Source: Catajapyx aquilonaris
Lineage: Eukaryota
Assembly (NCBI GenBank): GCA_000934665.2
Contig: JYFJ02003379.1
Location: 1-42,622, forward strand
Length of the DNA stretch: 42,622 bases
Direction of reading: 5' to 3'
Shown: piece after piece, positions 19,131-42,622 of the stretch
How the letters are laid out: the number at the start of each line of letters is the position of its first letter
Numbering within the stretch: the first letter of the stretch is position 1
Position numbers and translations under genes: made by a program
The notes under the pieces: generated by a model
The model's input: the letters and a program-made list of their open reading frames with translations, nothing else
Told to the model about the DNA's origin: nothing
The model's database searches: none

Positions 19131-19931
19131 GAGAGTTCCACTTCTTCCAGGTCGTCACACGCAGTCCATTGTTGTACCTCACCCATTCGGACGGATGGAC
19201 ACTTCTGAAATACAGGCCAAGCATAATTCCAGACCATACTGGTTATATGTATACTGTATACAGTATTACATTATACTACACTTCCGTTATTTTCCTACTT
19301 TCTCATGACTAGTTTCATCACTGTTTAACCTTTTCAAAGTCAGCAACTCCCAAGATCATTAAGCTCAACATTGTTTGGCACCAGTGCTGTTTGGCGTCAC
19401 TATCATCATCAGGTTCTTTGCTCTAGGCCTCTAGGGCACCTTCAGCATTGTGTGCCTATAGGGCTGGCATGGAACACCCAGGCGCACCTATAGGAGCCTT
19501 ATCTTTCTGCTTTCGAATCCCTATGTAATTAATGTCTGCAGGACCGGGCGCTACAACTTGAGATAATGAACAAGATGACATCCCCATTAATGAGGCTTAT
19601 TGGAATCCTGGCGAGAATGTTCTGCACTACTACTCAACATTGAGACATTATGCAACAGAAAGAGGGCAAGGTCCTACAGAACAGCCTTACAGGTTCTCGG
19701 AAAGATCGGAACCCGGCTTTCACTCATGAAAATTCAAGGTTTGCAATGAATTCTTATCGGACATGTGCTGTGCTGGGAGAAACCTGCAAATTGCAGTGCG
19801 TCATCCGTCCAGGGCGTCGCTTTTCTTCGGAACCAAGTTTGAATGATAATCATGCAAAGCAGGTGCCAATCAGCAGGTGCGCCAGGACTGGACAGCATGG
19901 TGTAATTTAATCTAATAAACATGATATAGAG

Positions 19932-20010
19932 AAAGTTCATTTCTAGCTCCATGCCTGGACGTGTGTCTATAATAGACACACGTCCAGGCATGGAGCTAGA
20001 AATGAACTTT
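19932..20010. repeat. Perfect 79-bp palindrome (39-bp arms, 1-nt centre)
   Basis: aaagttcatttctagctccatgcctggacgtgtgtctat-a-atagacacacgtccaggcatggagctagaaatgaacttt. Confidence 0.95.
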
Positions 20011-23000: not shown

Positions 23001-23934
23001 TATCGATTTACATCTGAAAAAGGGTCAATCGTTAAAAGGACTGTCAACCATTTCCCGACTTGTAGGCTACAGCTACCCAGTCACGGTAATTATCATTCTA
23101 TCAGAAGCAGACCAAAGCAATGAGTTATCGCACTGTTTCTAAAAATAAATGTAGTGGAGGTGCAAGCCGTCAGGGTCGTGCAATGAACTTAGCCACTGAC
23201 AAACGGGCGATAAAAGAGCTATGTTTTCACTCATTCACTGCCAGTCATTATGTGTTGAGTAGTAATAGTTCTGAGGTGCTTGCTGTAGTTGTTTCCTTCG
23301 TCGATGGAGGTCATAACTTGGGATAAACATGATATGGCAATCCCAAAGGGATTAGAGTAATGATGTGCCCTTCTCTCATTAGGGCAAGACTGACCTGTGA
23401 TCACATTACCTTATGCAAGTGGTATGAAGTGGATAATATGAATTATAGTTTGAATCGATTGGCAATTATTTCTTAGATTATTATTTATAAAGACCCGTCT
23501 ATTTTATTTATCTTTAGTCTGCATTCAATGATATTGTGCATGTCAATTATACTTAAAACAAAATTATTATTTTGTTCGGAGATGCCATTATTACAAAATT
23601 CAGGTTCTTTATCAGATCTTAATCCACCTTGATACTGTTCAGTAGTGGTGCACACTGATATACTGTTTGCAAAGATCAGTTTAGGTCGGGACGTGTCATC
23701 ATACAACTGGCCCTCAGGAATTTAAAAAGTGTAGAAAGCAATCATTCAAAATATTCAACTGTCCAAAGAAATTAGTACATTACACGATTTGTTCAAGGCA
23801 TTGACCAAACTAGAGAGGGAATCATGTGTGGGATATGGTAAAGCAATTAATTACATGCAAACAAAGTTTTAAATCCATTGCTTATAGAATCTATTGTAGT
23901 ATCAGATCATGATTCTTCAAACAGGCTGTGCAAG

Positions 23935-24116
23935 TTGCACAAGTCTGTGAACTGACATGCTCCCCCTCCAGCCTATTTCTCCAGTTTCTTTATCTTAAAT
24001 CCCCCACCTCAGTGAATTCCATTCAGACCAGTACCCCCAACCCACCTACCCTATTTAATCCTAATCAATAATAAAATCTCCCTAAGGGAAGCTTGTCAGT
24101 TCATAGACTTGTGCAA
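23935..24116. mobile_element. Short MITE-like element with about 27-bp TIRs
   Basis: ttgcacaagtctgtgaactgacatgct versus agcttgtcagttcatagacttgtgcaa. Confidence 0.55.
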
Positions 24117-25857
24117 TGGTCAGTAGCTGCCCTGTCTCAGAGAAGAAGCCTAGACCTCCCTAATTTCTCACTCCCCCTATTTTGATGCTGCCACTACATA
24201 TGTCTAGTACTGAACAACTATAATGTTACTAATGCCTATAGCTCTTGTATTATTAGATGTGCAAGTCACATTAATTAAAGCAATAATTAAAAGCATAAAG
24301 CACATCTTGGTTAGTTTTATTTCCTGCTAGTAAATTTGTGAGAGACTGCAATCAAAGTACCCATGAGACAATTGCAAATTGTGTTAGATATCCATTCTTC
24401 ACATAAGCAGTGGTGACATCTTTATCTCTTACGTGAGCAAAACATTCCTGTTTTACTAAAGAGATAACAAAAGTAAGTACATGTTTACTAACAACTACTG
24501 TACATCAATCCTCACTTTGTACATCATTTCTGCTGGGCTTGAGGCTAAAACTGCAATCATACCTTGTCACTAGCATAACACCATTACAGTAGAAAAACTA
24601 ATCCCTACTCATGTACAGTATTTAACCTTCACACAGTAGCAGCTTTGGCACAAGAATTCAACATGTGCCCAACTCACAAGACAGGTGTCAACATAAACTA
24701 CAGCTTACATTAGTAACTAGTGAATATAAAATACTCTGCTTCCCTTCTTATACTGTACATCTTATTGGCCACAGGCTTATGCATAATGGTACAATCCAAT
24801 CCAGATAGAAAATAACAAAACTAACCCAACTACAAGTCCCAGAATAAACACGGACTTTAGCAGCATTGGCCAAATACAAAACTGCACTGTAGAATATTGT
24901 ATAGCGTTAAAAATTTCCAACACACAGTTTAAAACTTTGCAACATATCTACCACACACTGAACTATACTATTACCATAAGATATATTTTGAACAAAATTC
25001 ATAAAGCCTGTTTAATGCCACTGTTAAGTACAAACTTGGAAAGTACTATGTATTGAAATCCCACACCAAAATTGCATTAAAGAGATTTGTTGTAGGCAGT
25101 CCCTTAACAGAAAGGACAGAACTACCTCTCAGAGTAAAATAATTTGGATTTGAAAATATGAGCAAAATGAGAAAGTATTTTTAAAGTTCCCTTGTACTTC
25201 AATAATAGCATGCCCTGCATTCCCTATCCACTCTACCTGAGACGGCATCTCCTTGGTGGTGTCATCACCCTCTGTTAGGTACGATATTGTCCAAAAAGAT
25301 GGAGCCAATTTTGCATTGAAACCAAATTCAAAATCATATTCTTTTTGAGCAATAAAGTACCATACTCTAAAATAGTTGCCATTATGAGCTGAATCCTATT
25401 TGCACGCCTGTACACTACCCTTGTCAAGAACAAAACCACATCACAAAATGCTATTGATTTCTCCTTGTAGCTGATGGCCCACACATATAAACCTACAGCA
25501 ACTGAGGATTATGTTTACAATGAAACTTGCGCATAGCAGGATCTCTCTGTTTCGCATCCATTTTCCATACTGAACAGGTGTCCATTACATACAGTACTTC
25601 ACAAAAACTGCAATGCGGCCAAACACAAGCTCTGTAATGGGCAGGTTTCTGCTCTAAGGTGCATTTACACGTAACACCATAGCATAGGCAGAAACTAAAC
25701 ATGGTCTACTATTTGCTGGTGAAGTACAATACTGTCTACCTGGAAACCATATGTTACCATCTGATTTCACGTCAACCTGGATGAATTTCTACGAGATCTA
25801 TTGCCAACAGATCCAGTTGACATGAGATCAGACAGTCACATATCAGGTTGGCAATAC

Positions 25858-26046
25858 CTTCCAGAATAGTGGACTGGTTCTACACCTGGTCCAGTGCACT
25901 CGTACCAGTGTAAACGACCCTTTTGACATGTCACACCATATTAGAGCCCAGTCCACATATTGCATGTATAGTCCAGATGTTTGGAAGGTGTTTGGATCCT
26001 CCACATGACCTCCCACCAGCAGAGAGGTCGAGAGGCCAGCACCCAT
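25858..26046 (-). CDS. Candidate upstream-ORF / microprotein exon (MGAGLSTS...PLFWK) in the HECW leader
   Basis: ATG in strong context (gggATGG); 63 codons to the phase-0 donor AAG|GTATTG; in frame with the open frame at the HECW acceptor 19204. Confidence 0.4.
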
Positions 26047-26049
26047 CCC

Positions 26050-26630
26050 TGAACATCACCCCCCATCAATAAATCCTTGGCCGCAAAAACCCCAGGCCTA
26101 ATTTACCTGTCATTGAGTGCACATCAGGGTGCTGTCCCCCACCCCCGCCCCCTCTCGGTGTCCGGACGGGTCCGGAGAAGGGGGCAAGGTCTGGTCCTCC
26201 CAGGACCGGCGCGTGTTCCAAACTGCGTGGGGCTGTCAACCGAAGGTGGCACAGGGGGCACGACCCGCACTCACGAGACGGGGAAGGGGTCAGGGCGAAT
26301 AAACATTTGGAGGGCTGGCGGCCAAAAAGCGGGGCCCACAGAAGGAGACGACGAGACGGGGGCTACTCTACTTCACTACCACTCCTTGGGTTCCCGGCAA
26401 CTGCGCATCCTCACTGCCCGATCACGACGACAGAGGGGGGAGGGAGGCCCACATGCTACCAGACCAAGGGCGAGACAAGGGCGGGCCCAGGGCAGGATCC
26501 GGGGGGAGGGACGGAACAACGCGGGTTTTAATGCGGAGAAGATTAATCGAATTGAAGGAATGGAATCTATTTGGGCGGATAAAGGCGCCTCTGGCGGACA
26601 GGTGGGGAAGGTCATCGAAGCGCGCTTTTT
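26050..26630 (-). promoter_or_regulatory. GC/CpG-rich probable promoter and first exon of the HECW locus
   Basis: Local CpG-rich island just downstream of XPB; minus-strand donor ACAG|GTAAAT at 26107. Confidence 0.45.
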
Positions 26631-26975
26631 TTTAAAAAAAATTATTTAGTCAGTTCAGAACAAAGATATCTGCAGAAATCTTTGGTTCAGAACATGAATC
26701 GCAACTAGCGCAATGAAGAACCACAGTGGACCAGAGGGCTAGTGTCTAAATATCCACAGAGAATCCGGGGTGATCATTCCAGCAGCCAGTATGGATCCGT
26801 TTTTTTTTCCCCCCCTGGAGAGAGGAAAAAACAATGGTTGGCCCAGGCTGATGGCTTCAAACATAGTGAATAAAAAATATGTAAGACCTTCGGTGGGGCT
26901 TCTTTCCTGTTAGTAGGTTGATATGTATTCTTAGACCTTTTTCATCTTTTCATTTACCAATTTTATTAATTTGCC

Positions 26976-27155
26976 TGTGCTTGATGGATTTTTGATTGTG
27001 GGAGGAAACGAGAGACCTGAGAAAACCCATGTGAACATGGAAAGAATCCATCCAAACTCTATCCACATAAGGATCCTCTGTCTGATCTGGGAATTGAACT
27101 GGGGACCTCAAAGGTGGAAGGCTGTGGCAATTGCTACTACACCACTGTGCCGCCC
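26976..27155 (-). mobile_element. tRNA-derived SINE (V-SINE-like core) just after the XPB stop
   Basis: Minus strand reads gggcggcacagtggtgtagtag (A-box-like)...cagttcaattccc (B-box-like)...tgggttttctcaggtctctcgtttcctcccacaatcaaaa. Confidence 0.65.
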
Positions 27156-27281
27156 TAATAAGCAAAATGCACCTAATAATCCAAAGGTTTGCACAGAAAA
27201 TAAGTATGCAACTCTTTGTGGTCAAAATGAATTTGTTTATAAATATGGGCACAAAGTATTACAAAACAAAGCTGTACAAAT

Positions 27282-27407
27282 TTATTTCATTCGGAATTTC
27301 TTGAATAAGGGATGCTTCTGGTTGAATGCTGACGACTTCTTGTACTCCATGTACACGGCATCATCGGCGCCAGAGAGAGAACTCATGTTGCCTGTGCGTC
27401 GATTTGC
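27282..27407 (-). CDS. ERCC3: XPB exon 8 (terminal)
   Basis: [22 protein letters not shown]...[10 protein letters not shown] followed by TAA. Confidence 0.93.
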
Positions 27408-30400
27408 CTGAAATTAAATTGAAAAGGTCTCAAACCTGACATTATGTTGTATTTATTGCTTCTCCCTGATAAGAAGCTTCCACCCAAATGGATAATAAAC
27501 ATTATCATCATGTATACTGTCTTTGTAGCAGCCCAATTATGGAACAAAACCAACTAATTATCATGTATACATTTTGAGAATGTACAATTTTCGGCTCCAT
27601 TAACATTGAGAGAAGCTCTGAATGCTGATGTTGCAGTATGCATTTTCTCCAGTTCTGCCTACATTATATCACTAATTTTAGACACAGGAAAAAAGACCAG
27701 GGTAATTTGGGTACCTGTGTACAGTTGGTTAAGTCCTTTCCACATGAGGCGGATTATTAGCCTCCAACAGAGGTGCTAGCTATAGGGGAGTGCGAGTCAN
27801 GGGGGGGCAGCACCTCTGATGGAGGGTAATAATCCCGCCTCATGTGGGAAGGAAATCCTTTAACCGACTGTACCACATGAGTACCGTACCCAATTCTCAA
27901 TATGTACTATGGGCGCCAAAAGAATTGACCGGAGTTGATGGGTATACGTATAGCGCCCGATAGCGCCATATACCCATCAACTCCGGTCAATTCTTTTGGC
28001 GCCCATAGTACCAAGGTCCCTATTAGGATCCAATAACCAATTAGAGTGCAATAATGTTTACTAAGGTTGTTCATAGTGATACTACATGAAAAAGTGAAAC
28101 ACATCAGGTTTCATCTAATTAGACACCCAAGTCAGAATTTCGGATTTAAAAATCACGATTGTTAAATCTAGACTTTTCAGATACCTGTATCTAATTGGGC
28201 AAAAAATTAGTTTCACACCATTAGATAAATTATTAGGAACAACCTTACTAAAAACTATTGCAATCCATGCCAACACTGATCATGGAAGATGTCTTTTATA
28301 ATCCTCACCACTGGACCCTTGTGGCCCTCGCCAGGGATTTTCTCTTCATCTGCATCCATGTCAGTAGCAGCCAACACCTGCTGCAAGAGGTGGCCCTGCT
28401 GGTCTTTGTTTGCATAATCCAGTGTCTCTTCATCCATTCCTGCCAACCTGGTAATCACCTTGTAGCTGTAACCCTGGTTGACCAGAAAGCGCTGCCTCTT
28501 CCTTGAGTAGCTCATTTCCATGGTGTCTTGTGAGACTAACGTGTAAAAGAAGGCATTATACTCCTCTGCAATAGCACCTTTCTTGGCACGGAGAATCCTT
28601 CCAAGTCGCTGTGCCTCCTGCCGTCGAGATCCACCATGAGATGATATCTGAATCAGGACATTGGCTTCCGGAAGGTCAAATGATGTGTCAGCCACTTTGC
28701 TCACAAAAATGGTGTTCACATTCGGGTTGAACTTGAAGTTTTGCAGAATGGTGATTCGCTCACTCTGAGGGAATGCGGTTGTAGGTCACAGTTAAGAAAT
28801 GCCCCACAAAAATGGCATTATCATGCAGATGTGCACCATGCTGTTAGGAAAACTTAAAAAATACTTAGCTAATTGATATCAACAAGTGTAATTACGCTTT
28901 AACTGTCCGTATCTGAATTAACACTAAGTCACATCATCCTATCATTCAAGTTCTGTAAACCAATAAATGACTAATTCTAACTTCCTGTACTGTACAATGA
29001 TAGGGAATTAACCTTACAATCTAAATATTGCATGAGGTACTGCTCTCTAATGTGTACCATGTGATGGGAGTCTCATGGATTACTGCCGAACATGGTAAGG
29101 GCCAAGAATAAATTTTTGGACTCACCTGTGAGGTAGGCCCATAGATAAAGAACTTGCCCATTGTCCTGGCATAGTGCTTCAGTGCAAAAACATTGTCAGA
29201 GAAGACAATTATCTTGTCATTGCGCTGCTCATGGTATTTAATCAGAAACTGACACGCTCGAAACTTATTTGGGTTCATCACATACAGCAGCTGAAAGAAA
29301 CGATGCAATTCAGTATGAACCAGCTAATTTCAAACAAGAAAAATGAAAATATACCATTTACTCTACGTGACATTTGAATGTCTATACATTGTTGGTATGG
29401 GCTTTTCATGAGACCTGGATGTGGCAGATTTGAATTCACTAACAATGTGTCTGCCATGCATCTGAAATAAATCCCTTTTATGAGAAATATCACTTACAAG
29501 TTTCTTGCAAGTCCTACAGGTGAGATATTCTCTGTAGAATTCTGGAGTCATAGGGCACCAGACCTCAGCACATTGGACCTTGGCGATGAATCCATTGTTC
29601 TGAAGCTCAAGCCAGTTGGCCTCATACAGTTTTGGGCCAATGAGAAAATTCAGATCTGCAATTTTGTCATCCTCTCGGACCAAAGTGGCAGTAAGGCCAA
29701 GTTTGCAGTGAGCCTGGACAAGGGTCAGCACTCGCCGGAACATGCGTGCTGGGATGGTGTGCACCTCATCTAGTACCATGATCCCCCATTCTTGATCCTG
29801 CAACCACTTCATTGTCTGTTCTGCCTCCCATGAACGCTTCTGTTGATGGGTTATCATCGAATAAGTTGTCACCAAGATGGCGCACCTAAGGTGTTAAAAG
29901 TTTCTCATGTATATGGATTTAGGACATTTTATAATATTGCCAACATAACATGAGCAGTATAACTCACCCCATAGGCTTGTCCTTGGCCTCACTAGTAAAT
30001 CGACAAATCATGCTGTCATCAGCAGTGGACCAGGTTTTGAATTGGGCTTTCCACTGCTCAACAGACACCCCTGAGTTGCACAGCACCAAGGCCCTCTTGC
30101 GAACAGTGCAGCATGCAGTTACCCCAACCAAACTCTTCCCTGCACCGCAAGGGAGCACAATCACTCCAGATCTTGCTCGGCCATTGCCAAACATCTTCCT
30201 CAAGCTCTTCTCCTGATAGGGCCGCAACACTGCAGATGGCTTCAGGTCGATATTTATGTCTGGGTTAACAGTGTCATTTCGAAAATCATACTCTGCCAGC
30301 AAGGGATACTCCATTTCAATGCAGCGTTTCTGAAGCAGTTCAATGCGCTCTTGGTTCACCTCAAAAGACACTGTTTGAAGAGAGTTGGCACCACCTTCAC

Positions 30401-33400
30401 CCACTGCACCTTCCTCATCCTCTTCATCGTCCTTGTCCATTTTGTTGTAGAAAGTACTTATGTCCTCAGGGACTGCATTGCTGTCCCCATTCTCCACTGC
30501 ACTGGATGAAGTTGAAGGCTTTGCTCCAAACTGCAAAAAAAAGTACACGGTAAATGTCTTGCTTCCAAAAACAAAATTGAGGGTAAGACCCACAAGGGGT
30601 ATCAGAAGCAGCGTCAAAGAGTGAAAGAGTACTGGTACTAAACCTCCACATGTTCAGCCTGGGCCTCTTTTTACCATTAAAGCTCATACAACCATCTAAC
30701 TGCAATTAACAAAAATCTTCTATTTACTGTAACACCACACACACTGCAGCATGGTGGTATACAATGGGGTTGACTAGGGGGCTGGTATGCCTCAGATGCT
30801 AATTTCCGAATTTGAAAGTGTTACTTTGACTCGATTCTTTATGTATTGGCTGCCTTCATTCACAGATCACTTCCATATGGAACTATGGAAGTCAGCTTCA
30901 ATGTGTATGTACCTGGGGTGCTTCAACATTCCCATCAATCTCCTTGATGAGCTCTTCCTCCTGCTCTAGGTTGTGTCGCAGCCTGCACTCCTGAATTACA
31001 GGGTCCTTCAACATCCTCTGCAGCACCTCTGGATATGGAGACTCAACAAAGTACTTGTTATGCTTTAGAACCAGTTTCACCTTCCCATAGGAGACAGTGC
31101 AAAGTTTAATAAAGCTCTCAATCCCTTTGGGCACGGTAGTCTTGCTGAGTCGCTTCAGATACTCAATGATATCCCTAGTTTGTAGCCCAACACTGACAGC
31201 AGCATAGAGTGAGTATGAGGTAAGCTTATACTCATGAAGGTGTTCTGGACGGCACACTGGTTCTGAGATGGCAATGAGAAAGTCATGTGCATGACGGTAC
31301 ACAGGACTGAATGACTCCAAGAAGATGTGGCCATTTGGAGCCACCCACAAGGGGCGGGACGCATGGTCATCTTTTAAAGACATCTGGGATCGGTAGTCCT
31401 TTGCACCGTACTCATCTTCTGGGACAGCATTATCAGCCTTCTCTGCATTCTGCTTGGCTGCCTCTGGGACACCCTCTGAAAAAGGAGGATTGACATATTA
31501 ATGCATTTATTGCACTTATTAGGACACGTAAATGTTAAGAGACAATCACACAACATGTGAAGAATACCAGAATAGAATTATTACGAGATCTTATGTCATG
31601 CAATATGAACAAGTGTAGGGTACCTGCTGAGGCATCGTCGTCACCACCAATCCACTCTTCCTCTTCCTCCTTTTTCTTCCGTTTGAATCCCTTCCCTGTA
31701 ATAAAACATGAATTTATCAAAATCCAGCTGTAGCCTACAGTACTCCCCTCAGAGGGCCACCAGCCCACTGGGTAATATATCTAATCTAACCAATAAGTAA
31801 TAAAAAATACTCAAATACTCAACATCCTGCTGCACCAGGATCTTCATAGCAATAGCACTAAATAAGCTACTGCAGCCTGGCATTAAGCCATAAAACATAC
31901 ACAGATGCAGTGACACCTATCCAAATCAGAATCAGGCCTTTGAACTAAAACTTTCCCGAGTGAATAGACTTCCATGATATGCGACAGGAATCCATTCAAG
32001 ATCTTGTACCAGGGCCAAACCAAAACTTTGACATGCTTGGTCTGGGTAAATTACAGGGGTCACTTGGCTATTATCACAATAACATATTGCAAGGTCCTTG
32101 GTGTAATCACAGATAAGGGCAACACACTGACAACATGCATGCAAAATTTCGCGTTTTCCCGCTTTTTCCCCCATAAGGAGGGCTATAAAATATTTCGATA
32201 TATATCTCACAGGCAATCGATATTTGCATTGTCGTGTAGCACCTCATTACAAACTTATTCGATGGAATTATAATTTTATCCGTGCTCTCTGCTTTCCTCT
32301 AAATTATTAGCGAAATGTGTAACATCTGATTGTTTGACGGTAAGTAGGCATCAATTACAAGCAATCTACGATGTCAATTGCGATATATCGAAAATCGATA
32401 TATCGCATGAGAGGCGATTTTGTTCCAGGCCCACTTTACCCGATTGTCATTCTGAATGCAACGGAAGTTCATATGAAAAATAATCGACAATTATGAGGCA
32501 TATACGTTCATCTTGAACTAATTTCGCGTCAATTATGAAAAAATTCAGGACTAGTGGATCACAGTTCCATCTGTCAACCCTGACAGGTCCAGGGCAACGA
32601 CATCGCACATCCTGCACGCATCCTGTTCCTGTGGAGGTTCTACTCTTTGTCTCCCCAAGTTGACCTCCTGAGTTCAAGGTGAATATGAAGCAAAGTTTCA
32701 CAAAATCTGCAGATTTCGTAGAATGAAAGTTCCTCTTTCCAATGATGCAAAGTGACCCTCACCAGGCCAACTGGTGTCTCAGATGTTGTCACTTAAGCAC
32801 TAGGCCTAGTTGAAATTTTGACATATCAGTTAAGCTGCAGTTCAACAATGTCCAAAAAAATGGCATCAGCGAAGGGTTTTTATTTTGCAGGTTATTAAGT
32901 CACTAGGGGCTAGCCCCTCGCAACTCCCTATCTAGCCCTATGGTGATGGTTGTTGAATATAAAAGTCTCCCCCAGCCTGGAATGTGGCGCTAGCATGGCC
33001 CCACAGGGATCTTGTGGTTCGGGTGGCTGACTGGCGATCTGCGAATGCCCTCCAGACCCAGCTGCAGTGGAAAGAATGGTTCGGATTGTTTCAGGCGTCT
33101 GCAAGCGTCCGCCCTAACCACAAGATCCTGTGGGCATACGCCAGCATTGTGGACGTAGACTTTTATATTACATTGCCGTATTGTATAAGTTGCAGGGGGC
33201 TGCTGGGGGCACAATTTTAATCATCTCGCAATGGCAAAACATATTATTTTTGTGAACGCAAATGGGGTCGCGACCCACAGTTTTGGAAGCACTGCCGTAG
33301 GTGCTGGTGATGCCCGATCTTTTCACCATACATGTGTCTCCACAAAAAAGTCCATCGGGGCAAGATCTGGGCTTCTGAAGGGGATAGGCATGGCGAAACT

Positions 33401-35492
33401 TCTCATTAAAGACTTCGCACACTGGGAGGCTGAACAAATGAAATTTTCCTATGACAGGTTTGTTTCATGGATGAGGCAGCTTTTTATGTGAATCATCAAG
33501 AACAAGATGTGTGGTGTAAAGACCCGAGATATCCAGCACCTATGGGATAGGACTGCAACTGTTAACTCCAAATAAGATTGATAGGGTTTGGCACAATACC
33601 GATTACCTGCTTTTCAATCTGCCGAGCGACACATGAAGCTCATATCGAAACAAACTAAGGTGAGACCAACACTTTAGATCTTTCTTAGCATTTCCAAACG
33701 TAAATCATTCAGATGTCTACAAGTTTCCGAGTTATAGGGTTTTCAAATTGGGACATTGTTTTTTGATGACACTGCAGATTGGCTTATCATTACCAAAAAA
33801 AAGAGAAGAAAATAATAGAAACATAACAGTGTCACACTGTTACTGAGAATTGCTCCAATTGCAGGTGTACAGGTATAGCAGGCCTGGAAACAATGATTGC
33901 ATAATTAATGTGTTTATCAATTGCTTAAGTCAAATCCCCCTATTTCATCTTCAGAGAATCAGTTATCCACAAGTGTCTGAGATGAAGTCAAACAGATGGG
34001 TTCAGTTCAAGGAGAACCACTTCGGCAACAACGCATTAGGGAACAGCGAAGTTCATGTTGAGGCAGAGGTGAAGAAAAATGCACCTAAGTACACACCAAA
34101 GTACACGCTCAGTGCCACATTTATGTCGAAGAAAACTGCCCTTAGTACATCTGGCACAAGGAACACTCATGGCAATGATACCACCGAGTTGGACTGTTCA
34201 ACCAACCTGGATCTCCACTCAACATCCATCAGTACACCCCAAAATAACTCTCCAAATACCTGCCCTGCTCTGGCCGCAATTATTGAGAATGATACCGTGA
34301 TCCTGGAGGGAAAATCTGCATGCAGCGCAAGTAACACTCATGGCAATGCCACCTCTGAGTCTGATCATGCAACCAACCTGGATCTTCACTCAACATTGGT
34401 CAGTACACCCCATAATAACTCTCCAAATACCTGCCCTGCTCTGGATGCAATTATTGAGAATGATACCATGGTCCTGGAGGGAAAAGCTGCACTTGCTTTG
34501 TGCAGCGCAAGTAACACTAGTGGCAATGACACCTCTGAGTCTGATTATGCAACCGACCTGGATCTTCACTCAACATTGGTCAGTACACGCCAAAATAACT
34601 CTCCAAATACCTGCCCTGCTCTGGCTGCAATTATTGAGAATGATACCATGATCCTGGAGGGAAAAGCTGCACTTGCTTTGTGCAGCACAAGTAACACTTG
34701 TGGAAATGCCACCTCTGAGTCTGATTATGCAACCGACCTGGATCTTCACTCAACATTGGTCAGTACACCCCAAAATAACTCTCCAAATACCTGCCCTGCT
34801 CTGGCCGTAATTATTGAGAATGATAACATAAACCTGGAGGGAAAAGCTGCACTTGCTTTGTGCAGCACAAGTAACACTAGTGGCAATGACACCTCTGAGT
34901 CTGGTTACGCAACCGACCTGGATCTTCACTCAACATTGGTCAGTACACCCCAAAATAACTCTCCAAATATCTGCCCTGCTCTGGCCGCAATTATTGAGAA
35001 TGATACCATGAACCTGGAGAGAAAAGCAGTTGCTTTGTGCAGCGCAAGTAACACTCGTGGCAATGACACCACAGAGTTAGATTTTGAAACCTGCCTATAT
35101 CACCACTCAGCACCCATCAGTTCACTCCACAATTACTCCTGGAATGCTGCTCTGACTGCATTAATTGGGAATAAGACTGTGACCGTGGTGGGAAGAACTA
35201 CAGTTGGTTTGTTCATAATCAGGAATGGCACAAAAATTATGGCAGAATTTGCATTCCGCTCAAAGCTCCATTCAGTGCTCAACCAGTCATCACAGAGTAA
35301 CCGCTCTATCCTGACTGCATTAATAGGATGTGGTGCTTTCCCAGAGGGGATTACAAAAGATATACTCTTCCATGATGATCAAGAGAGAAGTTACTTGGTA
35401 AGTGGACATTCTTGATCCTAGCATATCCCATTGATTCCAGATGTAACAGCCTCAGCTATGGCAGACTCGAAAGGCTGACCCACCATACTTCC

Positions 35493-35574
<82 letters not shown>

Positions 35575-37071
35575 TTGGGTAGTGCGGACCTCCCAACTGG
35601 GGAGGTAATGCACGGACCTTTATTTGTTCTTTTTTGGCCTGTGTACAATGTGTACCTATATTGGAACATTGTTGCGAATCGCCCGGGTCCATGAGCTGGG
35701 AGGGGATGTGCAAGATGCAAGTGCAATGTCTGAAAGAGTACATTTTGTGAACTCCCCCGGGTGGATTAGTCTATCAGAGATTCCACCTGAGACGAACCCA
35801 GAGACAACCGCTTAACGCTGCTCGAGATGAAGGGGGGAGACCCCGGGCTGGGATCGAACCCAGCAGCAGGGGATAAACTATTGTTTATCCGCACGTTAAC
35901 AACAAGACCTCCCGACGGTTGGCAACGTTGAGTCGCAAACAATCGGGTGCCTATTGATACTGCTGCATGGTTACATGGAACTGTGCTTTATTCTTCTTTT
36001 CGGGTTTTCAGGGATTCAATTCGGGATTTTGAGGTGATTAAGTGGATGGAATAGCCATTTGTCTTGGTGTTGCTGTATGGCTTTTTGTTACCGCAACAGT
36101 ACTACTGTACATTGTTGTGGCCCTGCCAGGCACGGTACGTCGCCCGTGCGTGATATTTTTAGTTCTTGCGGAGCGATAGCGGAGCTGGGCGCTTATTGTG
36201 GGTTTCTGTATCCGCAACATTTACTGTCCATCTTGTGGCGCCGCAGGCCAACGAACGTAATGTGGCTTTGCCAAGCGCGAAGTACACCTTCACACAGTCC
36301 GTTAAACAAACGAACTACATGACGCCAAGTTCCGCCTGCCACCACCAGGCTCTCCCCTCCTATCATGCCCACGACTCACTCTGCAGGCATAGGCCTACTA
36401 CTGCACACGCTCAGAAAACACGGCTGGTGTGACATCATATCGTTCTTTGGGTTAACGGACTGCAGCAACCATCATGGCATATTTCCCACCTCCTTCATTA
36501 ATACTGTGGTCCTAGCACTCGTCTGAACGGTTCGCGTGGCCGAGGTAAGAAGACGCCCTTTGTTATGCTCTCCCGGCAACCGGTTGTTTGCGACGCGTAG
36601 CCAACATGTTTGGAGCACCGCGTCGCTAGGTGCGGATAAACGATAGACTTTCCGCAGCAGGACCCTTCCATCCCTGGGCTCATATGTCACTGCAGCGCCA
36701 CTGCGCCTCTCCCACCATACTTCCGTATATGGCCTGTGTATTAGGTTATGATACTTATTTCTGCAGTCCTGTTAAGTCTGTTAAATCCGTAGCCTATTGT
36801 AGTACTTACTGTAAAACTTCTTTTTTTTCAATTAGAATGGCTACTGCGGTAGATCTTGTTGTTAGCAATTTGATACGAGTGGAGGAAATATTGCAGCAAC
36901 TTAGTTTCAAAATGTGCAGCAACACTCATCATGGCTTTCATTCGAGCACGTCCCTGTAAGTCAATTTTTTCCTGGCTGCACCTCCAAATGAGCTCTACTT
37001 GTGTATGATCCCGGATTCACGCGAACGTTACCTTTGTCGTAGTCCTTCTTGGCCTTCTTGCCTCCCGCCAT
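27282..37071 (-). CDS. ERCC3: TFIIH helicase/translocase subunit XPB (ERCC3/haywire), complete, 8 exons, 790 aa
   Basis: Exons 37071-37032, 31695-31624, 31475-30913, 30530-29968, 29885-29498, 29290-29126, 28764-28309 and 27407-27282 total 2373 nt in frame. Motifs: [18 protein letters not shown], Walker [33 protein letters not shown]-terminal HPLFKKFR. Confidence 0.97.
27710..27885. mobile_element. Fold-back / MITE-like inverted repeat in the last XPB intron
   Basis: ccacatgaggcggattattagcctccaacagaggtgct versus agcacctctgatggagggtaataatcccgcctcatgtgg; one N in the loop. Confidence 0.7.
27904..28011. mobile_element. Miniature element with perfect 43-bp inverted arms and TA flanks
   Basis: gtactatgggcgccaaaagaattgaccggagttgatgggtata ... 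tatacccatcaactccggtcaattcttttggcgcccatagtac. Confidence 0.85.
28309..28764 (-). CDS. ERCC3: XPB exon 7 (helicase C-terminal domain)
   Basis: [14 protein letters not shown]...[40 protein letters not shown]. Confidence 0.96.
29126..29290 (-). CDS. ERCC3: XPB exon 6
   Basis: [17 protein letters not shown]...[13 protein letters not shown]...IYGPTSQ|GTGAG. Confidence 0.95.
29498..29885 (-). CDS. ERCC3: XPB exon 5 (DEVH box)
   Basis: [10 protein letters not shown]...[13 protein letters not shown]; donor CTT|GTAAGT. Confidence 0.96.
29968..30530 (-). CDS. ERCC3: XPB exon 4 (includes Walker A)
   Basis: [12 protein letters not shown]...LRPYQEKSL...[12 protein letters not shown]; donor GG|GTGAG. Confidence 0.96.
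30913..31475 (-). CDS. ERCC3: XPB exon 3 (N-terminal domain)
   Basis: GVPEAAK...[28 protein letters not shown]...[17 protein letters not shown]. Confidence 0.95.
31624..31695 (-). CDS. ERCC3: XPB exon 2
   Basis: [23 protein letters not shown] (NLS-like); phase 1-1. Confidence 0.85.
32956..33169. mobile_element. Degenerate MITE-like inverted repeat in XPB intron 1
   Basis: aatataaaagtct...cccacagggatcttgtggtt versus aaccacaagatcctgtggg...agacttttatatt. Confidence 0.55.
33982..35415 (+). CDS. Uncharacterised 477-aa ORF with 57-60-aa tandem repeats, nested antisense in XPB intron 1
   Basis: Frame open 33850-35415; first ATG at 33982; possible acceptor catcttcag ending 33954; repeat unit lengths are all multiples of 3. 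Confidence 0.55.
   Translation: MKSNRWVQFKENHFGNNALGNSEVHVEAEVKKNAPKYTPKYTLSATFMSKKTALSTSGTRNTHGNDTTELDCSTNLDLHSTSISTPQNNSPNTCPALAAIIENDTVILEGKSACSASNTHGNATSESDHATNLDLHSTLVSTPHNNSPNTCPALDAIIENDTMVLEGKAALALCSASNTSGNDTSESDYATDLDLHSTLVSTRQNNSPNTCPALAAIIENDTMILEGKAALALCSTSNTCGNATSESDYATDLDLHSTLVSTPQNNSPNTCPALAVIIENDNINLEGKAALALCSTSNTSGNDTSESGYATDLDLHSTLVSTPQNNSPNICPALAAIIENDTMNLERKAVALCSASNTRGNDTTELDFETCLYHHSAPISSLHNYSWNAALTALIGNKTVTVVGRTTVGLFIIRNGTKIMAEFAFRSKLHSVLNQSSQSNRSILTALIGCGAFPEGITKDILFHDDQERSYLVSGHS
34162..35220 (+). repeat. About 180-bp tandem repeat, 5 full copies plus a degenerate sixth
   Basis: Units begin aacact at 34162, 34333, 34513, 34693, 34873 and 35050. Confidence 0.95.
35496..35573. 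repeat. (TAA)n microsatellite, probably the tail of the adjacent SINE
   Basis: Directly visible. Confidence 0.97.
35498..36710 (-). mobile_element. tRNA-derived SINE with (TTA)n tail, interrupted by a DNA element
   Basis: 19-bp direct repeat cccaccatacttcc[a/g]tata at 35479-35497 and 36711-36729; A-box-like ggcgcagtggcgc at the 5' end; B-box ggttcgatccc at about 35850-35860. Confidence 0.7.
35871..36653. mobile_element. Non-autonomous DNA transposon with 24-bp GG-starting TIRs and 8-bp target duplication (Merlin-like)
   Basis: TIRs ggataaactattgtttatccgcac and gtgcggataaacgatagactttcc; gcagcagg at 35863-35870 and 36654-36661. Confidence 0.7.
37032..37071 (-). CDS. ERCC3: XPB exon 1
   Basis: [13 protein letters not shown] then G|GTAACG; phase 1 matches exon 2. 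Confidence 0.8.
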
Positions 37072-38000
37072 GACCCCAGGAAAAGCCGGTTTCAGTGCAG
37101 AGACGCAGTTTACTCTGCCAGACGACACGACGAGCCGATCGCCATCTTGGACGTTGCACCACCAGTGTTGCCAAGTCGGGACACATTACATGGTTGCCAC
37201 GTTATTAATTGATGATGACAAGCTTTAATTAAATCAGATTTATGAGTAAAAGCGCACAAACTGCTTTAAAACCACCGGTAAAATACAATTGCAATATTCG
37301 ATTTGGTGATTTCACAGTGCCACCTGCGCGGGTGCGTTTGAAGAGGAACAATAGGCTCTTTATGCAATTCGGTATAATTACATAACCGTACATAACATTG
37401 AAAACATCATTTCAGGTTGCGAATTTGCAAGCGATGCAACATCTTGGCAACGTCTTTGTATCTTTTGCGCAAATATTTGTCTAACAATTTGCGTGCTATT
37501 TGGCGAAATTGCAGTTATTTGCTGGAAATGACGCCGCACCCTTTGTTCCGCCCAGTTCCGCCGCACCTGCCGCCTCGTAACAGTTAAAGAAGTAGCTATT
37601 AACCGTTTGGCAACATTACTTTCTCCCGCTTTCTCCCATACAGTGCCATAAGGCCCAGACACCCTGCCCTTCTAAAAACAAAAATTCCAGGCACCAAATG
37701 TGGTCAGTCTGGCCACTGCCAAACTTGAACGTGTATAATTTACACAGAGTCTAGTACCTGCGCGGTCAGAAGCTGTTAACTGCTACCACAGCCAATAAAC
37801 AAAAGTGAAGCCGAGCTAGCTGCTATGCTCTGTTCCCTCTCTTTTGCGCTGTTCGATCAAAGCGCCGGGTGTCAGCTTGCTTGGTGGGGTGGTGGCTGGC
37901 TGAGGGGGTGTTGCCTTGTTCTCTTGCGTCGGGGGTGGTGTTCGGAACGGGGCCAGACCGGGGCGAAAAGGGGAAGGAGGAGGAAGAAGAAGGGGCAGAT
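37072..38000. promoter_or_regulatory. Probable bidirectional promoter shared by XPB and loqs
   Basis: Start codons are divergent with 929 bp between them; YY1-type CGCCATCTT at 37140-37148; repeated TGGCAAC/GTTGCCA motifs. Confidence 0.6.
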
Positions 38001-38084
38001 ATGTTCATGCCCGAGACTCCCAGCGGCTTGGGATTGGGGCTGAACGGAATGAGGGGTCCAGCCAGCACGGGACCAGCCCAGCAG
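38001..38084 (+). CDS. loqs: loqs exon 1
   Basis: MFMPETPSGLGLGLNGMRGPASTGPAQQ|GTAAAG; phase 0 matches the next exon; the start codon is not certain. Confidence 0.65.
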
Positions 38085-41000
38085 GTAAAGGAAGGATGGG
38101 CCCGGAAAGGAGGGAGGGGGGAAGAGAGCCGCCCAGGCCTAACCGCTTTATGTTTGGCTGGCCATTCACCCTGCAACCTTGTGATTGATATACAGGAGAA
38201 TATGACAAACTGTTCTAGGAAAGTCTGCTGCAGACTGAATTATCGCCATTAGCATGTTTGGCTGCGGGTCAGAGGAACACTGTTTCAGGGCTGAAAATGG
38301 GTTGCTTTTCAGAATGCAGTCAAGCAGGAAGGTGGGTCTTTCGAGGCAGCTCAACTGGGTGGAGGACTTCCGGCCAAGACCCCGGTGTCGCTGCTGCAGG
38401 AGCTGTACAGCCGAAGAGGGATGACCCCCAAGTACGAGCTGGTTCAGATCGAGGGGGCTGTACACGAACCCACATTCATGTACAGGGTCACCGTGGGAGA
38501 TATTGTTGGTACGTTCGGCATTCATACATACCAACGTGCATGGCATGGCGGGTGGAATAAACAGTCTGCAATTGGAATTGATAAGGGGCATTGTTCTCAT
38601 TGTGAATGTAGGTTAAGGGTTATCTGCTGTTGTAGCCAAGGGGTCGTGGAACTGGTGTACACGTTTTTGGGGGAGTTGTTACCCCCTTGGTTGTAGCACA
38701 TACAGGGTGTTTGTTACTAGGCCAGCCAATGGCTGTAGTATTCTTTGAGACAAAAGAAGTCAGAAAATGTAGGGGGGAGAAATGTCAAGGGAGAAACAGT
38801 TAAAATTACCTACACCAGAAGCGTTGGTCAATGGTTGCCGAAGGAGCAGGATATGAGCGCGTGAAAATTAGGACTGTTGGGATTTGCAAGGTCACCTCTG
38901 TCACAGAAGTGATTATCACCACTCATATCCTGCAACTGTGGCAACCACACGCCAATGTTTCTGGTCGTCTACCTCGTTAACTGTTAGTCCCTCAACATTT
39001 CTCCACCCTTCATTTTCGACTTGTTTTGGCCCGTGTTGCATTACCCATTGCGATTGTGTCCTGTAAACACTGAGCTACCAGGAGCTGACATACTTGTTTT
39101 GGTCCAAGTAATACGCTGACAGCCATTGGCTGGACTAGTTAGAAACACCCAGTATACTGGTGCGTACTAAATTTGAATTTGTCTATGGTGCAGTGGCAAC
39201 TGGTACCGGGCATTCAAAGAAGGAAGCTAAACATGCTGCAGCTAAAGCAGTGTTGGACAAGATTGTGCAACAGAATTCTGGTGGGCTGCCTTGCAACCCT
39301 GGTCAGCCCTCATTGGCAGAAGTCAACACCCAAGTGAGTACCAAAACAAAAGGCAGGCCAATTGCTAATTTGATACGCAACATTGCACATTTTGATGCAT
39401 GGTTCAGATGTTCTTTTAACATCTAATTTGCCATGCTTTCTTTCTAGGTGGTATCGCCTTATGAGGACAAAATCCCTGGAAACCCAGTGGGAGCCCTCCA
39501 AGAATTGTGCATGGCGAGAAGGAAGCCACCCCCAGCCTATGAAGTGGTATCTGAGGAGGGACTGCCCCATGAGAGGCAATTCACCATTGCATGTGTTGTT
39601 TGCAAGCTCCGCGAGACTGGCACAGGGAAGTCAAAGAAGCTGGCCAAGCGGCAGGCTGCTTATAAGATGCTCCAGAAGCTCAAAGATTTGCCCACAGAGA
39701 CCCCAAATGTCACTGCTGGGTTGGAGGATGAGGACGAGGTATGTTCTTGCATACAAAGAGCTGGCTCAACATGAGTTGGCTTCTGATTGTGTGATGGAAA
39801 TGGGGCAGCTTCAGGCTGCTGAGCCAACTTTTCAGGGAGTGAAGCTTCATAATTGGCCCATGTTCATCACCTATTCTCATGTTTTGCTGTTGGAACTGTC
39901 ATGAATAGCCTGTTTGCAATGTTGTTAAGAGGTGCTTTGAATTTGTTGAAATTTATAGCCAAAAAAATCACTTAAATTTTGAAATTCAAATGGGTGAGGT
40001 AGGGCAGATCATCTTATTAGCTCTAAGCATTCCTATATTTATGAGTAGTCAACTCAATGTGAGACAGCACAATTTCTTGGGAGAGGTGTCAGGAAAGAAT
40101 TCTAGCCTACCTATTTTCATACCGATCCCACTGCATGCTCCCACTCCTACTTCCCAAAAGTCTTACTGTCTTTCCAGCCTCTGAAATAGCTTTGCGGACA
40201 GATAGAGAAAGGAAGAGGAAAATTCCTGGCAACAAAAAAACACTTTTGTTCTTGCAGATAGCACAAAAGCTGTCGGCCGCTCGTTATGCGGGGCTGAAAG
40301 ACAGTAAGATCTCAACCCTGTCCCCGCCACACAGCCAGAAGGTCTCGCAGTTCCATCGCAATCTCAAGTCATCCACGGGAGAGAAGCTGGCCCAGCTGCA
40401 GGTGAACAAATAAAGAGAGAGAGAGAGAGGGCAGAGAGAAAATGTGGCTAGCTCACAAGGACTTCATTTGCATTTGTATGGTGGTGACAGGAGAACAGCT
40501 TAATGAAGGACGGCAGTGGGACTATGCCACTGTGCATGAACCCATGCCATTGGTGGTGGGAGGACATCGGTTATTCAGAAATAGGGGGATTTTGGTGGCA
40601 TGCTGCTTATTGTTATGCTGCCCTTGGGGAGGGAAGAGCATCCTGCAACATGTCAAGTTTAAAATTAACTTTCAGCTCCATGAAAAACTTGAGCAGGAAG
40701 GATGCCACACTCTATGCCAGCATGAAGTTACAAGACTTTTTCAGTTGTATGGTATTGCTGGAATAACTAAATGATCAGCAATAACATGCTTTCACATTGC
40801 TTGAATGCACTGGCAATCACATAAACAACTCATCTGAACTCTAAACTCCCTTCCAGATTAGGATAAGTGAGCTGAACCATATTTTCTCTCTACGTCATAC
40901 AAGTGCAGTTGAGGCAGTTGGGCCATTCATATGCTTTGCTATGTGTTCACCAAACCTTATCCTCACCTCTTTTCTGTCTCTGTTAGAGCTGTTGACATTG

Positions 41001-41925
41001 TAGGTGTGTGGCTTGGTTTGGCATGTTGGAAGCAAAAGAGCTGGCTTACCTCCACCTCCTTAACCTCCCTACCCTGGGGAAGCATAACCAAACAAAGTGA
41101 TTGGCATGTGGTTTTTGTCCTCTTCTTTTTTTCTAGATCTTGGAGATACCGACGTCCATCTATGAATTGCTGGACGAGGTGAGTGGGCCTTGTTCCCGCC
41201 AAAAATTTACCTCTCCTGAAAACCCTGAGAACTGTGTGGATGCATGATGGCACTTTTGGCTTGTTTATCTTTGTTTCTTAGCTTTGAATTTTTTACTTCC
41301 CATCCTTGCCTGTGATTTGGTTTTCTGTTTCCCGTTGCCAGGACACTACATTATCGGTTATGTTTCGATTTTGGTCTTTATGGGAAAAGTTTCCCATGTT
41401 TATTCTCAACTCGTAAATATTTTTCAGACCACCCCACTGAACACAACTGTGCTCAACTATGTCCAGTTTCTGCATGAGATTGCAGTCGAGCAGAACTTTG
41501 AGGTTACCTATGTCGACATAGAAGAGATGTCGGCCACAGGTGAGCTGTCGTACTTTTTAAAAAACTTATTTATAGTTATGTACTAATTGAGAAGTTACTA
41601 GTGGTGCCAGTAGAGTATACCATTCAAGCTATCAAGGAATCTGTTTTTTTTTTTTCTCTGGTACCGTATTGAAGATACTAACCATTATTTTTAGCAATTT
41701 GATGAAGTGATGCCTGCCACTTTAAAGTTTTGAAGATAGTCTCTCTCATAGACCATACACAAACTAATTTATTTGCATTCACTTACAGGCTTATTCCAGT
41801 GCCTGGTGCAGCTGAGTACTCTGCCAGTGGCAGTCTGCTACGGCACTGGCAAGTCGGACAAGGATGCCCAGTCGGATGCAGCTCGCAATGCCCTTGAGTA
41901 TCTGAAAATCATGACCAAGAAGTGA
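38001..41925 (+). CDS. loqs: Loquacious / TARBP2 / PACT-like triple-dsRBD protein (Dicer partner), 367 aa, or 381 aa with the cassette exon
   Basis: Exons 38001-38084, 38313-38508, 39194-39333, 39448-39738, 40258-40401, 41428-41539 and 41789-41925 total 1104 nt in frame. dsRBD1 KTPVSLLQE...SKKEAKHAAAKAVL; dsRBD2 NPVGALQELC...KSKKLAKRQAA; dsRBD3 ...QLSTLPVAVCYG...ARNALEYLKIMTKK. Confidence 0.93.
38313..38508 (+). CDS. loqs: loqs exon 2 (dsRBD1, first part)
   Basis: Acceptor cttttcag; AKTPVSLLQELYSRRGMTPKYELVQIEGAVHEPTF; donor G|GTACGT. Confidence 0.92.
38703..39152. mobile_element. Tc1/mariner-type MITE in a loqs intron
   Basis: ta|cagggtgtttgttactaggccagccaatggctgt ... acagccattggctggactagttagaaacacccag|ta. 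Confidence 0.75.
39194..39333 (+). CDS. loqs: loqs exon 3 (dsRBD1, end)
   Basis: ATGTGHSKKEAKHAAAKAVLDK; donor CAA|GTGAGT. Confidence 0.9.
39448..39738 (+). CDS. loqs: loqs exon 4 (dsRBD2)
   Basis: GNPVGALQELCMAR...GLPHERQFTIAC...GKSKKLAKRQAAYKM. Confidence 0.94.
40258..40401 (+). CDS. loqs: loqs exon 5 (dsRBD2-3 linker)
   Basis: IAQKL...HSQKVSQFHRNLKSSTGEKLAQLQ|GTGAAC; phase 0-0. Confidence 0.88.
41137..41178 (+). CDS. loqs: Candidate 42-nt in-frame cassette exon of loqs (ILEIPTSIYELLDE)
   Basis: Long polypyrimidine tract ending ctag; donor GAG|GTGAGT; phase 0-0 with no stop; TGCATG at 41241. Confidence 0.65.
41428..41539 (+). CDS. loqs: loqs exon (dsRBD3, first part)
   Basis: NYVQFLHEIAVEQNFEVTYVDIEEMSAT then G|GTGAGC. 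Confidence 0.92.
41789..41925 (+). CDS. loqs: loqs terminal exon (dsRBD3, end)
   Basis: LFQCLVQLSTLPVAVCYGTG...AARNALEYLKIMTKK followed by TGA. Confidence 0.94.
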
Positions 41926-42622
41926 TTGCATTACTGTGCTAATCTGGACCCCAACACACTTCCACCAGCGTAGTGAGAGTTCATTTTAGGGGTCTTCCAT
42001 TGCCGCATGCTCTCAGCATGGTTCTTGTTCTCTTTTGGCAAGAAGCGGCTAACAGAATGGAGGCCCGGGAGGTGGGTCCTCGTGCTTAACGGGCACACTC
42101 CCAGTCGGGTTGAAAAAAATATAGTAGCCTTTACATTAGTTTCGGTGTTCTTCGTTGTTAGATTGGCTGTGTTTTGGCAACATGGTGTTGCTCTAGGCGT
42201 GTGCCCATCAAGCAAGATGACCCACCTCCACCTCGCTCACACAGTTTACACGTTTCAAATGTGTAACAACGGATACACATTTACAGGCTATACTTTGCAT
42301 TGTAGTGAAATTTTTCTCGTCTCGTCACCCAGCAGTTGGTTGTTGTTGTAGTCGTTTTTGCATGTGGGTGTAGGGGCATGTAGGAAAAGGGCATTATTTG
42401 GATGCAAAGTATAGGTGTTGTAATATGAATGTTGCAGAAGCAATTTTTGACTCCTGGTGTCGCTGCAGGGAAAAAAATCAAGTAGCAATTGATAATAATT
42501 GTTTATGCCCCAATAGAATTGTACATTCTTTGCAATTCTTAAGGCCATTTCACAAAAAAAATGTCGCGCGGCAAACGGCGCGACTTGCGGCAAATTTTTG
42601 TTTATATTTATTGTTGCCAACA

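What the first reader, a model, noticed from the sequence alone, without database searches (positions are those of the whole stretch)
33850..35415. Nested antisense ORF in XPB intron 1 built from 60-aa tandem repeats
Seen: a 1.5-kb stop-free frame with repeats of consensus [59 protein letters not shown]. Unit lengths 171, 180, 180, 180 and 177 all preserve frame. Each unit has about three N-x-S/T sequons and two Cys. Toward the C-terminus, more diverged copies remain recognisable ([23 protein letters not shown]...ILTALIG) and are still stop-free, and the non-repeat flanks are also open. Inference: a lineage-specific repeat protein, possibly a glycoprotein, hosted antisense inside a core TFIIH gene. 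I recognise no family and see no signal peptide in this exon.
Basis: partly seen in the sequence, partly recalled or inferred. Interest (0 to 1): 0.7.

Follow-up and report, generated by a model that had tools for sequence, protein, structure and literature searches.

The report
Orphan repeat exon inside XPB intron
A stretch of DNA inside the first intron of the DNA-repair gene XPB looks like a genuine, fast-changing protein-coding exon made of 60-amino-acid repeats with many sugar-attachment sites, but it has no known relatives, and whether it is still expressed is untested.

Summary
In detail: a 522-codon stop-free frame (33847-35415, +) lies antisense in XPB intron 1, with units of 171, 180, 180, 180 and 177 nt plus two diverged ones. 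Length alone is not decisive (about 29 such frames expected genome-wide), but it behaves like an exon: acceptor at 33955 and GTAAGT donor at 35397, host-like codon usage that starts at the acceptor, only in-frame length changes, and N-x-S/T sites kept 17 of 18 times (neutral 12.9, P=0.01). Amino acids are otherwise unconstrained (dN/dS about 1). A truncated duplicate on contig C4616 carries three frameshifts; the window copy has none. No credible homologue in 1.84 billion proteins; a probable decayed relative lies on C171. No signal-peptide exon with a start codon was found, and expression is untested. Best reading: exon of a lineage-specific nested gene for a glycosylated repeat spacer, live (0.45) or recently disabled (0.28). 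Boldest reading: an alternative first exon spliced in frame to the neighbouring loquacious-like gene (0.12). New member of a known kind; interest 0.35.

The parts
33847..35415 (+). Stop-to-stop open frame, 522 codons
33955..35397 (+). Predicted coding exon B, 481 codons, phase 0 at both ends
   Evidence: top-scoring + strand exon candidate in 19300-38300; acceptor 8.1 bits (12 of 1062 AG sites as high), donor 7.3 bits (22 of 957 GT sites as high); codon model
33873..33954 (+). Predicted 82-nt intron in front of exon B
   Evidence: donor at 33872 is second of 957 GT sites; codon score intron-like, -0.26
33819..33872 (+). End of predicted exon A: 18 open, hydrophobic codons in the phase that would join exon B, preceded by two in-frame stops, no ATG; either a non-coding leader or a decayed signal-peptide exon
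   Evidence: 79 of 2425 GT sites have as hydrophobic an open 18-codon run; interpretation is inference
33982..33984 (+). First in-frame ATG inside exon B
34156..34326 (+). Repeat unit 1 (171 nt), 13-15% from units 2-5
34327..35043 (+). Repeat units 2-5 (180, 180, 180, 177 nt), 5-9% apart
35044..35223 (+). Diverged unit 6 (25-29% from units 1-5 over its first 99 nt), keeps all three sequon positions
35224..35397 (+). Unit-7-like tail, 22% identity to unit 1, three sequons; 35125-35301 matches a decayed frame on C171
35398..35403 (+). GTAAGT donor, identical in the C4616 duplicate; stop codon follows 15 nt later
31696..37031 (-). XPB intron 1 (host)
37032..37071 (-). XPB coding exon 1
38001..38084 (+). 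Usual first coding exon of the loquacious/TRBP-like gene, ends in phase 0
   Evidence: dsrm domain in the next exon; the name is recalled from sequence likeness
38313..38508 (+). Exon 2 of the loquacious-like gene; phase-0 acceptor, in frame with exon B
   Evidence: joined frame of 811 residues plus stop, no internal stop
33295..33780 (.). High-copy MITE-like repeat just upstream of exon A
   Evidence: 39 other contig places listed first; counts are lower bounds; depth
35871..36653 (.). High-copy MITE-like insertion with terminal inverted repeats, absent from the C4616 duplicate

Best explanation
33955-35397 is a real coding exon of a lineage-specific gene that sits on the + strand inside XPB intron 1 and is still under selection. 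SHOWN: open frame, splice signals at both ends plus an 82-nt intron in front, host-like codon usage, in-frame unit-length changes only, sequon retention, dN/dS about 1. INFERRED: a 60-codon segment of the ancestral exon was duplicated in tandem in several rounds (oldest units 6-7, then unit 1, then units 2-5) by unequal crossing over; selection keeps the frame and the N-x-S/T sites but not the other residues, as expected of an extended, heavily N-glycosylated spacer or coat protein (Ser+Thr+Asn 33%, net charge -23); the transcript starts just downstream of the MITE at about 33800 or further upstream and is probably tissue-restricted, to avoid colliding with XPB transcription. NOT FOUND: the exon that would route it into the secretory pathway, and any downstream exon of its own.
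For: Splice model. Codon model: N-flank plus unit 1 beats all 116 control stop-free frames on both scores together, the non-redundant 242 codons are matched by 2 of 116; the reading frame scores best of six on the full codon score in each of the five parts scored behind the acceptor, and not in front of it. Frame: 0 frameshifts in the window copy against 3 in 728 nt of the duplicate; neutral survival P 0.007-0.03 for the aligned part, 6e-5 to 1e-3 for the whole exon, 5e-5 to 1e-3 over the history of units 1-5. Sequons: 9 in 233 non-redundant residues against 4.4 by shuffling, P=0.015; 17 of 18 kept against 12.9 under neutral change, P=0.01. Two DNA copies only. A probable old, decayed relative on C171.
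Against: No amino-acid constraint: 27 non-synonymous to 8 synonymous alleles among units 1-5, evenly over codon positions (11, 12, 12); 25 to 10, pN/pS 1.0, against the duplicate; of 7 changes assigned to the window lineage in units 4-6, 6 are non-synonymous. Absence of stops among the substitutions is not itself significant (about 0.6 and 0.9 expected). The survival P-values are inflated because the frame was picked for being open. No ATG-led signal peptide upstream and no convincing transmembrane exon downstream. Unit 6 plus tail is only weakly coding-like (6 of 116 controls as good). Codon and splice models rest on 8 segments, 17 donors and 18 acceptors from this window, at least one donor probably misplaced.
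Confidence: 0.45

Rival explanations
1. Recently disabled gene: exon B was coding while its repeats grew, but the gene has lost its start or its first exon (two stops and no ATG in front of the hydrophobic run of exon A; MITE directly upstream), and the frame has not yet had time to break.
For: dN/dS about 1 and 6 of 7 window-lineage changes non-synonymous; exon A is open and hydrophobic but has no start; both other copies are dead; no further exons found.
Against: 3.4-9.8 frame-breaking events were expected in the window lineage since the duplication and none occurred, so death would have to be much younger than the roughly 5% split from C4616; all three splice sites remain strong.
Confidence: 0.28
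2. Alternative first coding exon of the loquacious/TRBP-like gene: a promoter in XPB intron 1 drives a transcript that starts at ATG 33982, splices 35397 to 38313 across XPB exon 1 and the shared promoter, and makes an 811-residue double-stranded-RNA-binding protein with a 472-residue repeat extension.
For: Both the exon-B donor and the usual exon 1 end in phase 0 and the join has no internal stop; no + strand coding exon of note was seen between 35398 and 38001, and the acceptors at 36661 and 36767 lie in or at the edge of repeats; a cytosolic product needs no signal peptide; dN/dS about 1 fits a disordered extension.
Against: Phase agreement is a 1-in-3 event; sequon enrichment and retention point to the secretory pathway, not to a cytosolic RNA-interference cofactor; no protein of 287-914 residues with this sequence scored in the search; the probable relative on C171 has no match to the window's loquacious-like gene in 29 kb around it; the duplicate keeps loquacious exons 1-6 open while its exon-B copy is broken.
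Confidence: 0.12
3. Captured or transposon-derived fragment: a piece of a gene or of a mobile-element ORF dropped into the intron between repeats, never expressed here.
For: The 1.7-kb unique block is flanked by high-copy repeats on both sides; the region duplicates readily.
Against: Only 2 DNA copies and no intact donor gene in the assembly; the C171 relative is single copy; no Pfam match; frame protection continued in place after the C4616 split.
Confidence: 0.08
4. Non-coding tandem duplication whose frame is open by chance.
For: About 29 frames of this non-redundant length are expected in 285 Mb; dN/dS about 1; slippage can explain the 3-nt loss in unit 5.
Against: Chance would also have to give strong splice sites at both ends and a short intron, frame-specific codon bias, only in-frame indels and sequon retention; longest of 8787 control frames is 242 codons.
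Confidence: 0.05

Closest known systems
Internal nested genes of insects (opposite-strand genes inside introns)
   Same: Coding sequence inside an intron of a conserved host. PMC13343718 (passages read) counts 659 internal nested genes in its Drosophila set, says nested genes often arise by relocation into introns, and reports about twofold higher expression divergence in testis than for unnested genes.
   Different: Here only one large exon and a short upstream exon end are found; the gene is not shown to be complete or expressed, and has no database homologue.
Mucin-like and other secreted tandem-repeat glycoproteins (single large repeat exon, VNTR type; family knowledge recalled)
   Same: One large exon of in-frame tandem repeats, Ser/Thr-rich, frame kept while residues drift.
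   Different: Ser+Thr only 23% and Pro 4%, with Asn 10% and N-linked rather than O-linked sites as the conserved feature; 2-3 Cys per unit; no signal peptide or membrane anchor found; no Pfam match.
Thrombospondin type-1 repeat proteins (P0003 looks like one; name recalled)
   Same: Similar period (about 57-60 residues) and a short Pro/Asn/Cys motif align.
   Different: Single-unit score at most 7.9 bits; units 1-5 have no Trp and 2-3 Cys; the hit is summed periodicity.
Loquacious/TRBP/PACT double-stranded-RNA-binding proteins (neighbour; name recalled, dsrm)
   Same: Exon B can be joined in frame to exon 2 of this gene.
   Different: No junction evidence; one literature search (listing only) showed no title on such a long repeat extension.

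Membership tests
Internal nested protein-coding gene | Coding sequence lies inside an intron of a host gene | tested here: met
   XPB exon 1 and exon 2 join in frame across 31696-37031
Internal nested protein-coding gene | Exon signals and coding statistics | tested here: met
Internal nested protein-coding gene | Complete gene (start, stop, all exons) inside the intron | tested here: inconclusive
   ATG 33982 and stop 35413 exist, but a strong donor at 35397 has no partner inside the intron
Internal nested protein-coding gene | Purifying selection on the protein | tested here: inconclusive
   dN/dS about 1; frame and sequons protected
Internal nested protein-coding gene | Transcribed and translated | not testable with these tools
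   no labelled RNA run offered
Mucin-like secreted repeat glycoprotein | Signal peptide or membrane anchor | tested here: not met
   none in exon B or in an ATG-led + strand exon in 19200-33960; exon A run has no start
Mucin-like secreted repeat glycoprotein | Pro/Thr/Ser-dominated tandem repeats | tested here: not met
   Ser 11.7%, Thr 11.4%, Pro 3.8%, Asn 10.4%, Ala 10%, Leu 10%
N-glycosylated repeat protein | N-x-S/T sites enriched and conserved | tested here: met
   P=0.015 and P=0.01; 22 sequons in 472 residues
Thrombospondin type-1 repeat | Trp motif, six Cys, Pfam match | tested here: not met
Transposon ORF or dispersed satellite | Many dispersed copies or a transposon domain | tested here: not met
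   2 DNA matches; no Pfam domain; single-copy read depth
Alternative first exon of loquacious-like gene | In-frame donor to exon 2 | tested here: met
Alternative first exon of loquacious-like gene | Junction reads 35397-38313 | not testable with these tools
   no raw RNA reads offered

The most novel reading that the evidence does not exclude
Exon B is a tissue-specific first exon of the loquacious/TRBP-like gene: a promoter inside XPB intron 1 reads through XPB exon 1 and the shared promoter and yields an 811-residue Dicer cofactor with a fast-evolving 472-residue tandem-repeat N-terminus. That would couple an RNA-interference isoform switch to interference with XPB transcription, in a locus where the cofactor gene has also been duplicated.
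Probability: 0.12. Interest if true: 0.7.

Novelty: new member of a known kind. Interest (0 to 1): 0.35.

Why it matters
If live, it is a clean case of an orphan exon in which selection holds only the reading frame and the glycosylation sites while dN/dS is about 1, with a dead duplicate beside it as a built-in neutral control; such genes are missed or dismissed by dN/dS filters. Nesting itself is common and nothing ties the product to TFIIH. The fusion reading would matter more, as a new kind of Dicer-cofactor isoform, and is settled by one junction assay.

Tried and rejected
Homologues: word search of 5.8 billion clusters, 0 of 6850 candidates at E<=1 (lengths 287-914 only); alignment of the tail with the C171 frame, longer proteins, 0 of 1291 at E<=10 (weak evidence); phmmer over 1.84 billion gave 2 hits, both summed periodicity (single unit at most 9.5 and 7.9 bits), each a one-member unnamed cluster. 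Pfam: only a sub-threshold GAGA hit, 0 of 7 units, 0 of 6 pieces. Atlas: no usable hit for the whole, best 0.79 for the tail, within chance. Rfam: 0 in the window. AlphaFold single-sequence models had pLDDT 33 and 40, so no fold search was run. Recalled likenesses dropped: a ubiquitin-protease Cys box in the first 36 codons (intron-like, no Pfam) and an RRM or retrotransposon ORF1 fold in the tail (no support). Expression: no RNA holder listed. Run X5 is unlabelled; its contigs lie on XPB and loquacious-like exons and repeats and have depth 0 over 34012-35266; contigs show presence, not absence, so this is not counted. C171: N-flank and tail protein alignments were not significant (P=0.39, 0.15) and neither was the core DNA alignment (114 against a null mean of 94); nhmmer found nothing. 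The duplicate's three frameshifts were not confirmed in reads (not among the rows shown). Allele instead of duplicate for C4616 was rejected: the XPB body has one copy, C4616 is unrelated beyond window 34670 and contigs of both versions are at about single-copy depth. Earlier findings: none near or by sequence. Literature: a search for XPB or haywire with nested genes listed 4 papers, none on this by title and abstract start; some searches were seen as listings only. An alignment search of the own genome was not available, so very distant paralogues may be missed.

Full report
Observation. The frame is there: 33847-35415 on the + strand, 522 codons, while the other five frames hold 19-47 stops. 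Tandem Repeats Finder gives period 180, 5.3 copies; the units measure 171, 180, 180, 180 and 177 nt, followed by a sixth 25-29% diverged and a seventh recognisable only as protein. XPB lies on the minus strand; its 40-nt coding exon 1 (37032-37071) joins in frame to the exon beginning at 31695, so the frame lies in the 5.3-kb intron 1. In the unlabelled run X5 one 2498-nt contig covers XPB exon 3 and has 173 nt left over, which by the depth table fits exons 1 and 2 (my arithmetic; the joint is not among the rows shown). A loquacious/TRBP-like gene (name recalled; dsrm domain) starts head to head at 38001. DNA contigs from one sample agree with the flanks and show about single-copy depth over the array.

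Is it coding? With duplicated units removed, 283 codons remain; about 29 frames that long are expected by chance in 285 Mb, so length is not enough. Four further lines agree. (1) Splice signals: a model from 17 donors and 18 acceptors of this window ranks 33955-35397 first among + strand exon candidates in 19300-38300; 12 of 1062 AG sites and 22 of 957 GT sites score as high as its ends, and the donor at 33872, 82 nt upstream, is second of 957. (2) Codon usage: trained on 8 coding segments of the window, the frame scores 0.09, 0.11 and 0.18 in the N-flank, unit 1 and unit 3 (held-out true exons 0.07-0.19), -0.05 in unit 6 plus tail, and -0.26 in front of the acceptor. Against 116 control stop-free frames, 0 match the N-flank plus unit 1 on both scores, 2 match the non-redundant whole and 6 match unit 6 plus tail. 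(3) Frame protection, below. (4) Sequons: 9 in 233 non-redundant residues against 4.4 expected (P=0.015); at three positions per unit 17 of 18 are kept against 12.9 under simulated neutral change (P=0.01), with the middle residue varying.

Against constraint on the residues: among units 1-5, 35 derived alleles split 27 non-synonymous to 8 synonymous (29% synonymous expected) and 11, 12, 12 over codon positions. So only frame and sequons look protected.

The duplicate. The frame has one other DNA match in the genome, C4616:9335-10065, 93% identical. C4616 copies window 34670-41753: the 3' half of the exon, XPB exon 1 and six of seven loquacious-like exons, but not the XPB body, which is single copy. 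Its exon-B copy is cut at 34670 by unrelated sequence and has deletions of 1, 7 and 7 nt; the window copy has no gap against it; substitutions are 25 to 10, pN/pS 1.0. The first two deletions are derived in the duplicate, as sister units show. Its loquacious-like exons are free of stops and frameshifts, 17 to 12, pN/pS 0.59 (the difference from the exon-B ratio is not significant, P=0.30). Non-coding parts of the block show 191 substitutions and 49 frame-breaking indels in 4387 nt. At those rates, or at the duplicate's own, the window copy should have suffered 3.4-4.9 breaks in the aligned part (P of none 0.007-0.03), 6.8-9.8 in the whole exon, and 6.9-9.9 over the history of units 1-5. These P-values are optimistic, since the frame was chosen for being open, but they make long neutrality unlikely. 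Of 23 differences in units 4-6, 7 map to the window lineage (6 non-synonymous), 12 to the duplicate and 4 are unassigned.

Relatives. None credible outside the genome; the two phmmer hits are summed periodicity. Inside it, the tail hits a frame with three stops at C171:116516-116686 (32%, E=0.02), whose only other hit is this exon (E=0.003; not independent). Upstream of it, in the expected order, DNA aligns with the 82-nt intron, the acceptor and the exon start (P=0.013 by resampling, 3 of 126 real tiles as good), though three other local tests were not significant. I rate it a probable (about 0.65) old, dead paralogue without the repeat expansion. It is single copy.

What is missing. Sequon selection implies passage through the ER, yet exon B has no signal peptide and no ATG-led hydrophobic exon with a donor was found on the + strand from 19200 to 33960. 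The 18 codons before the 33872 donor, in the phase that would join exon B, are open and hydrophobic (79 of 2425 GT sites do as well) but follow two stops and have no ATG, with a MITE just upstream: a non-coding leader, or a decayed signal exon. Downstream, the 35397 donor has no evident partner before exon 2 of the loquacious-like gene, to which it joins in frame (811 residues from ATG 33982).

Mechanism and odds. Most likely (0.45) a live, tissue-restricted nested gene whose large exon encodes an extended N-glycosylated repeat spacer, grown by unequal crossing over and held only in frame and sequons. Next (0.28) the same gene recently disabled. Then an alternative first exon of the loquacious-like gene (0.12), a captured or transposon fragment (0.08), chance (0.05). 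That the exon is coding-derived is about 0.9; that it is used today about 0.55. Anatomy and statistics are shown; expression, glycosylation, localisation and splicing partners are inferred.

Comparison and novelty. Nesting is common: PMC13343718 (passages) counts 659 internal nested genes in its Drosophila set and notes origin by relocation and raised testis divergence. Notes of this scan on the same genome describe other orphan or glycoprotein genes nested antisense in introns (unchecked). It works like a mucin-type repeat exon but fails the mucin tests (composition, no signal peptide) and is no thrombospondin repeat. Searches listed nothing on a nested gene in XPB intron 1 or on such a loquacious extension; the library lacks most subscription papers and I read no supplements. 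Verdict: new member of a known kind, interest 0.35; one junction assay decides the boldest reading.

Noticed in passing
G000:C4616:216-8866 (L003, L004): Second copy of the loquacious-like gene, exons 1-6 open with splice sites kept, pN/pS 0.59, with changes in the first RNA-binding domain; it also carries an orphaned XPB exon 1.
   Followed up: partly
window 41749-42541; G000:C5243, C6013, C8967: The last exon and 3' end of the loquacious-like gene recur at 97% identity on three other contigs; the start of C8967 overlaps C4616, so it may continue that copy.
   Followed up: partly
window 35871-36653: MITE-like insertion with about 30-nt terminal inverted repeats and an apparent 3-nt CAG target duplication (PIF/Harbinger-like, recalled); the empty site is seen in C4616.
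   Followed up: partly
G000:C171:116390-117100 (L052): Single-copy decayed frame, probable old paralogue of exon B, in a stretch with no evident gene.
   Followed up: yes
window 37071-38001: XPB and the loquacious-like gene are head to head with 930 nt between start codons, probably a shared promoter.
   Followed up: no
window 1-19154 (minus): HECW-type ubiquitin ligase gene (WW and HECW1_helix domains), running off the contig start.
   Followed up: no
window 19932-20010 and 27904-28011: Perfect inverted repeats of 39 nt (1-nt spacer) and 43 nt (22-nt spacer).
   Followed up: no
window 12573-12956: AT-rich 136-nt tandem repeat with 30-nt subrepeats.
   Followed up: no
window 26053-26649: GC-rich 198-codon open frame on the + strand behind the XPB 3' end, not examined.
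   Followed up: no
window 32912-33202: Another high-copy dispersed repeat in XPB intron 1.
   Followed up: no
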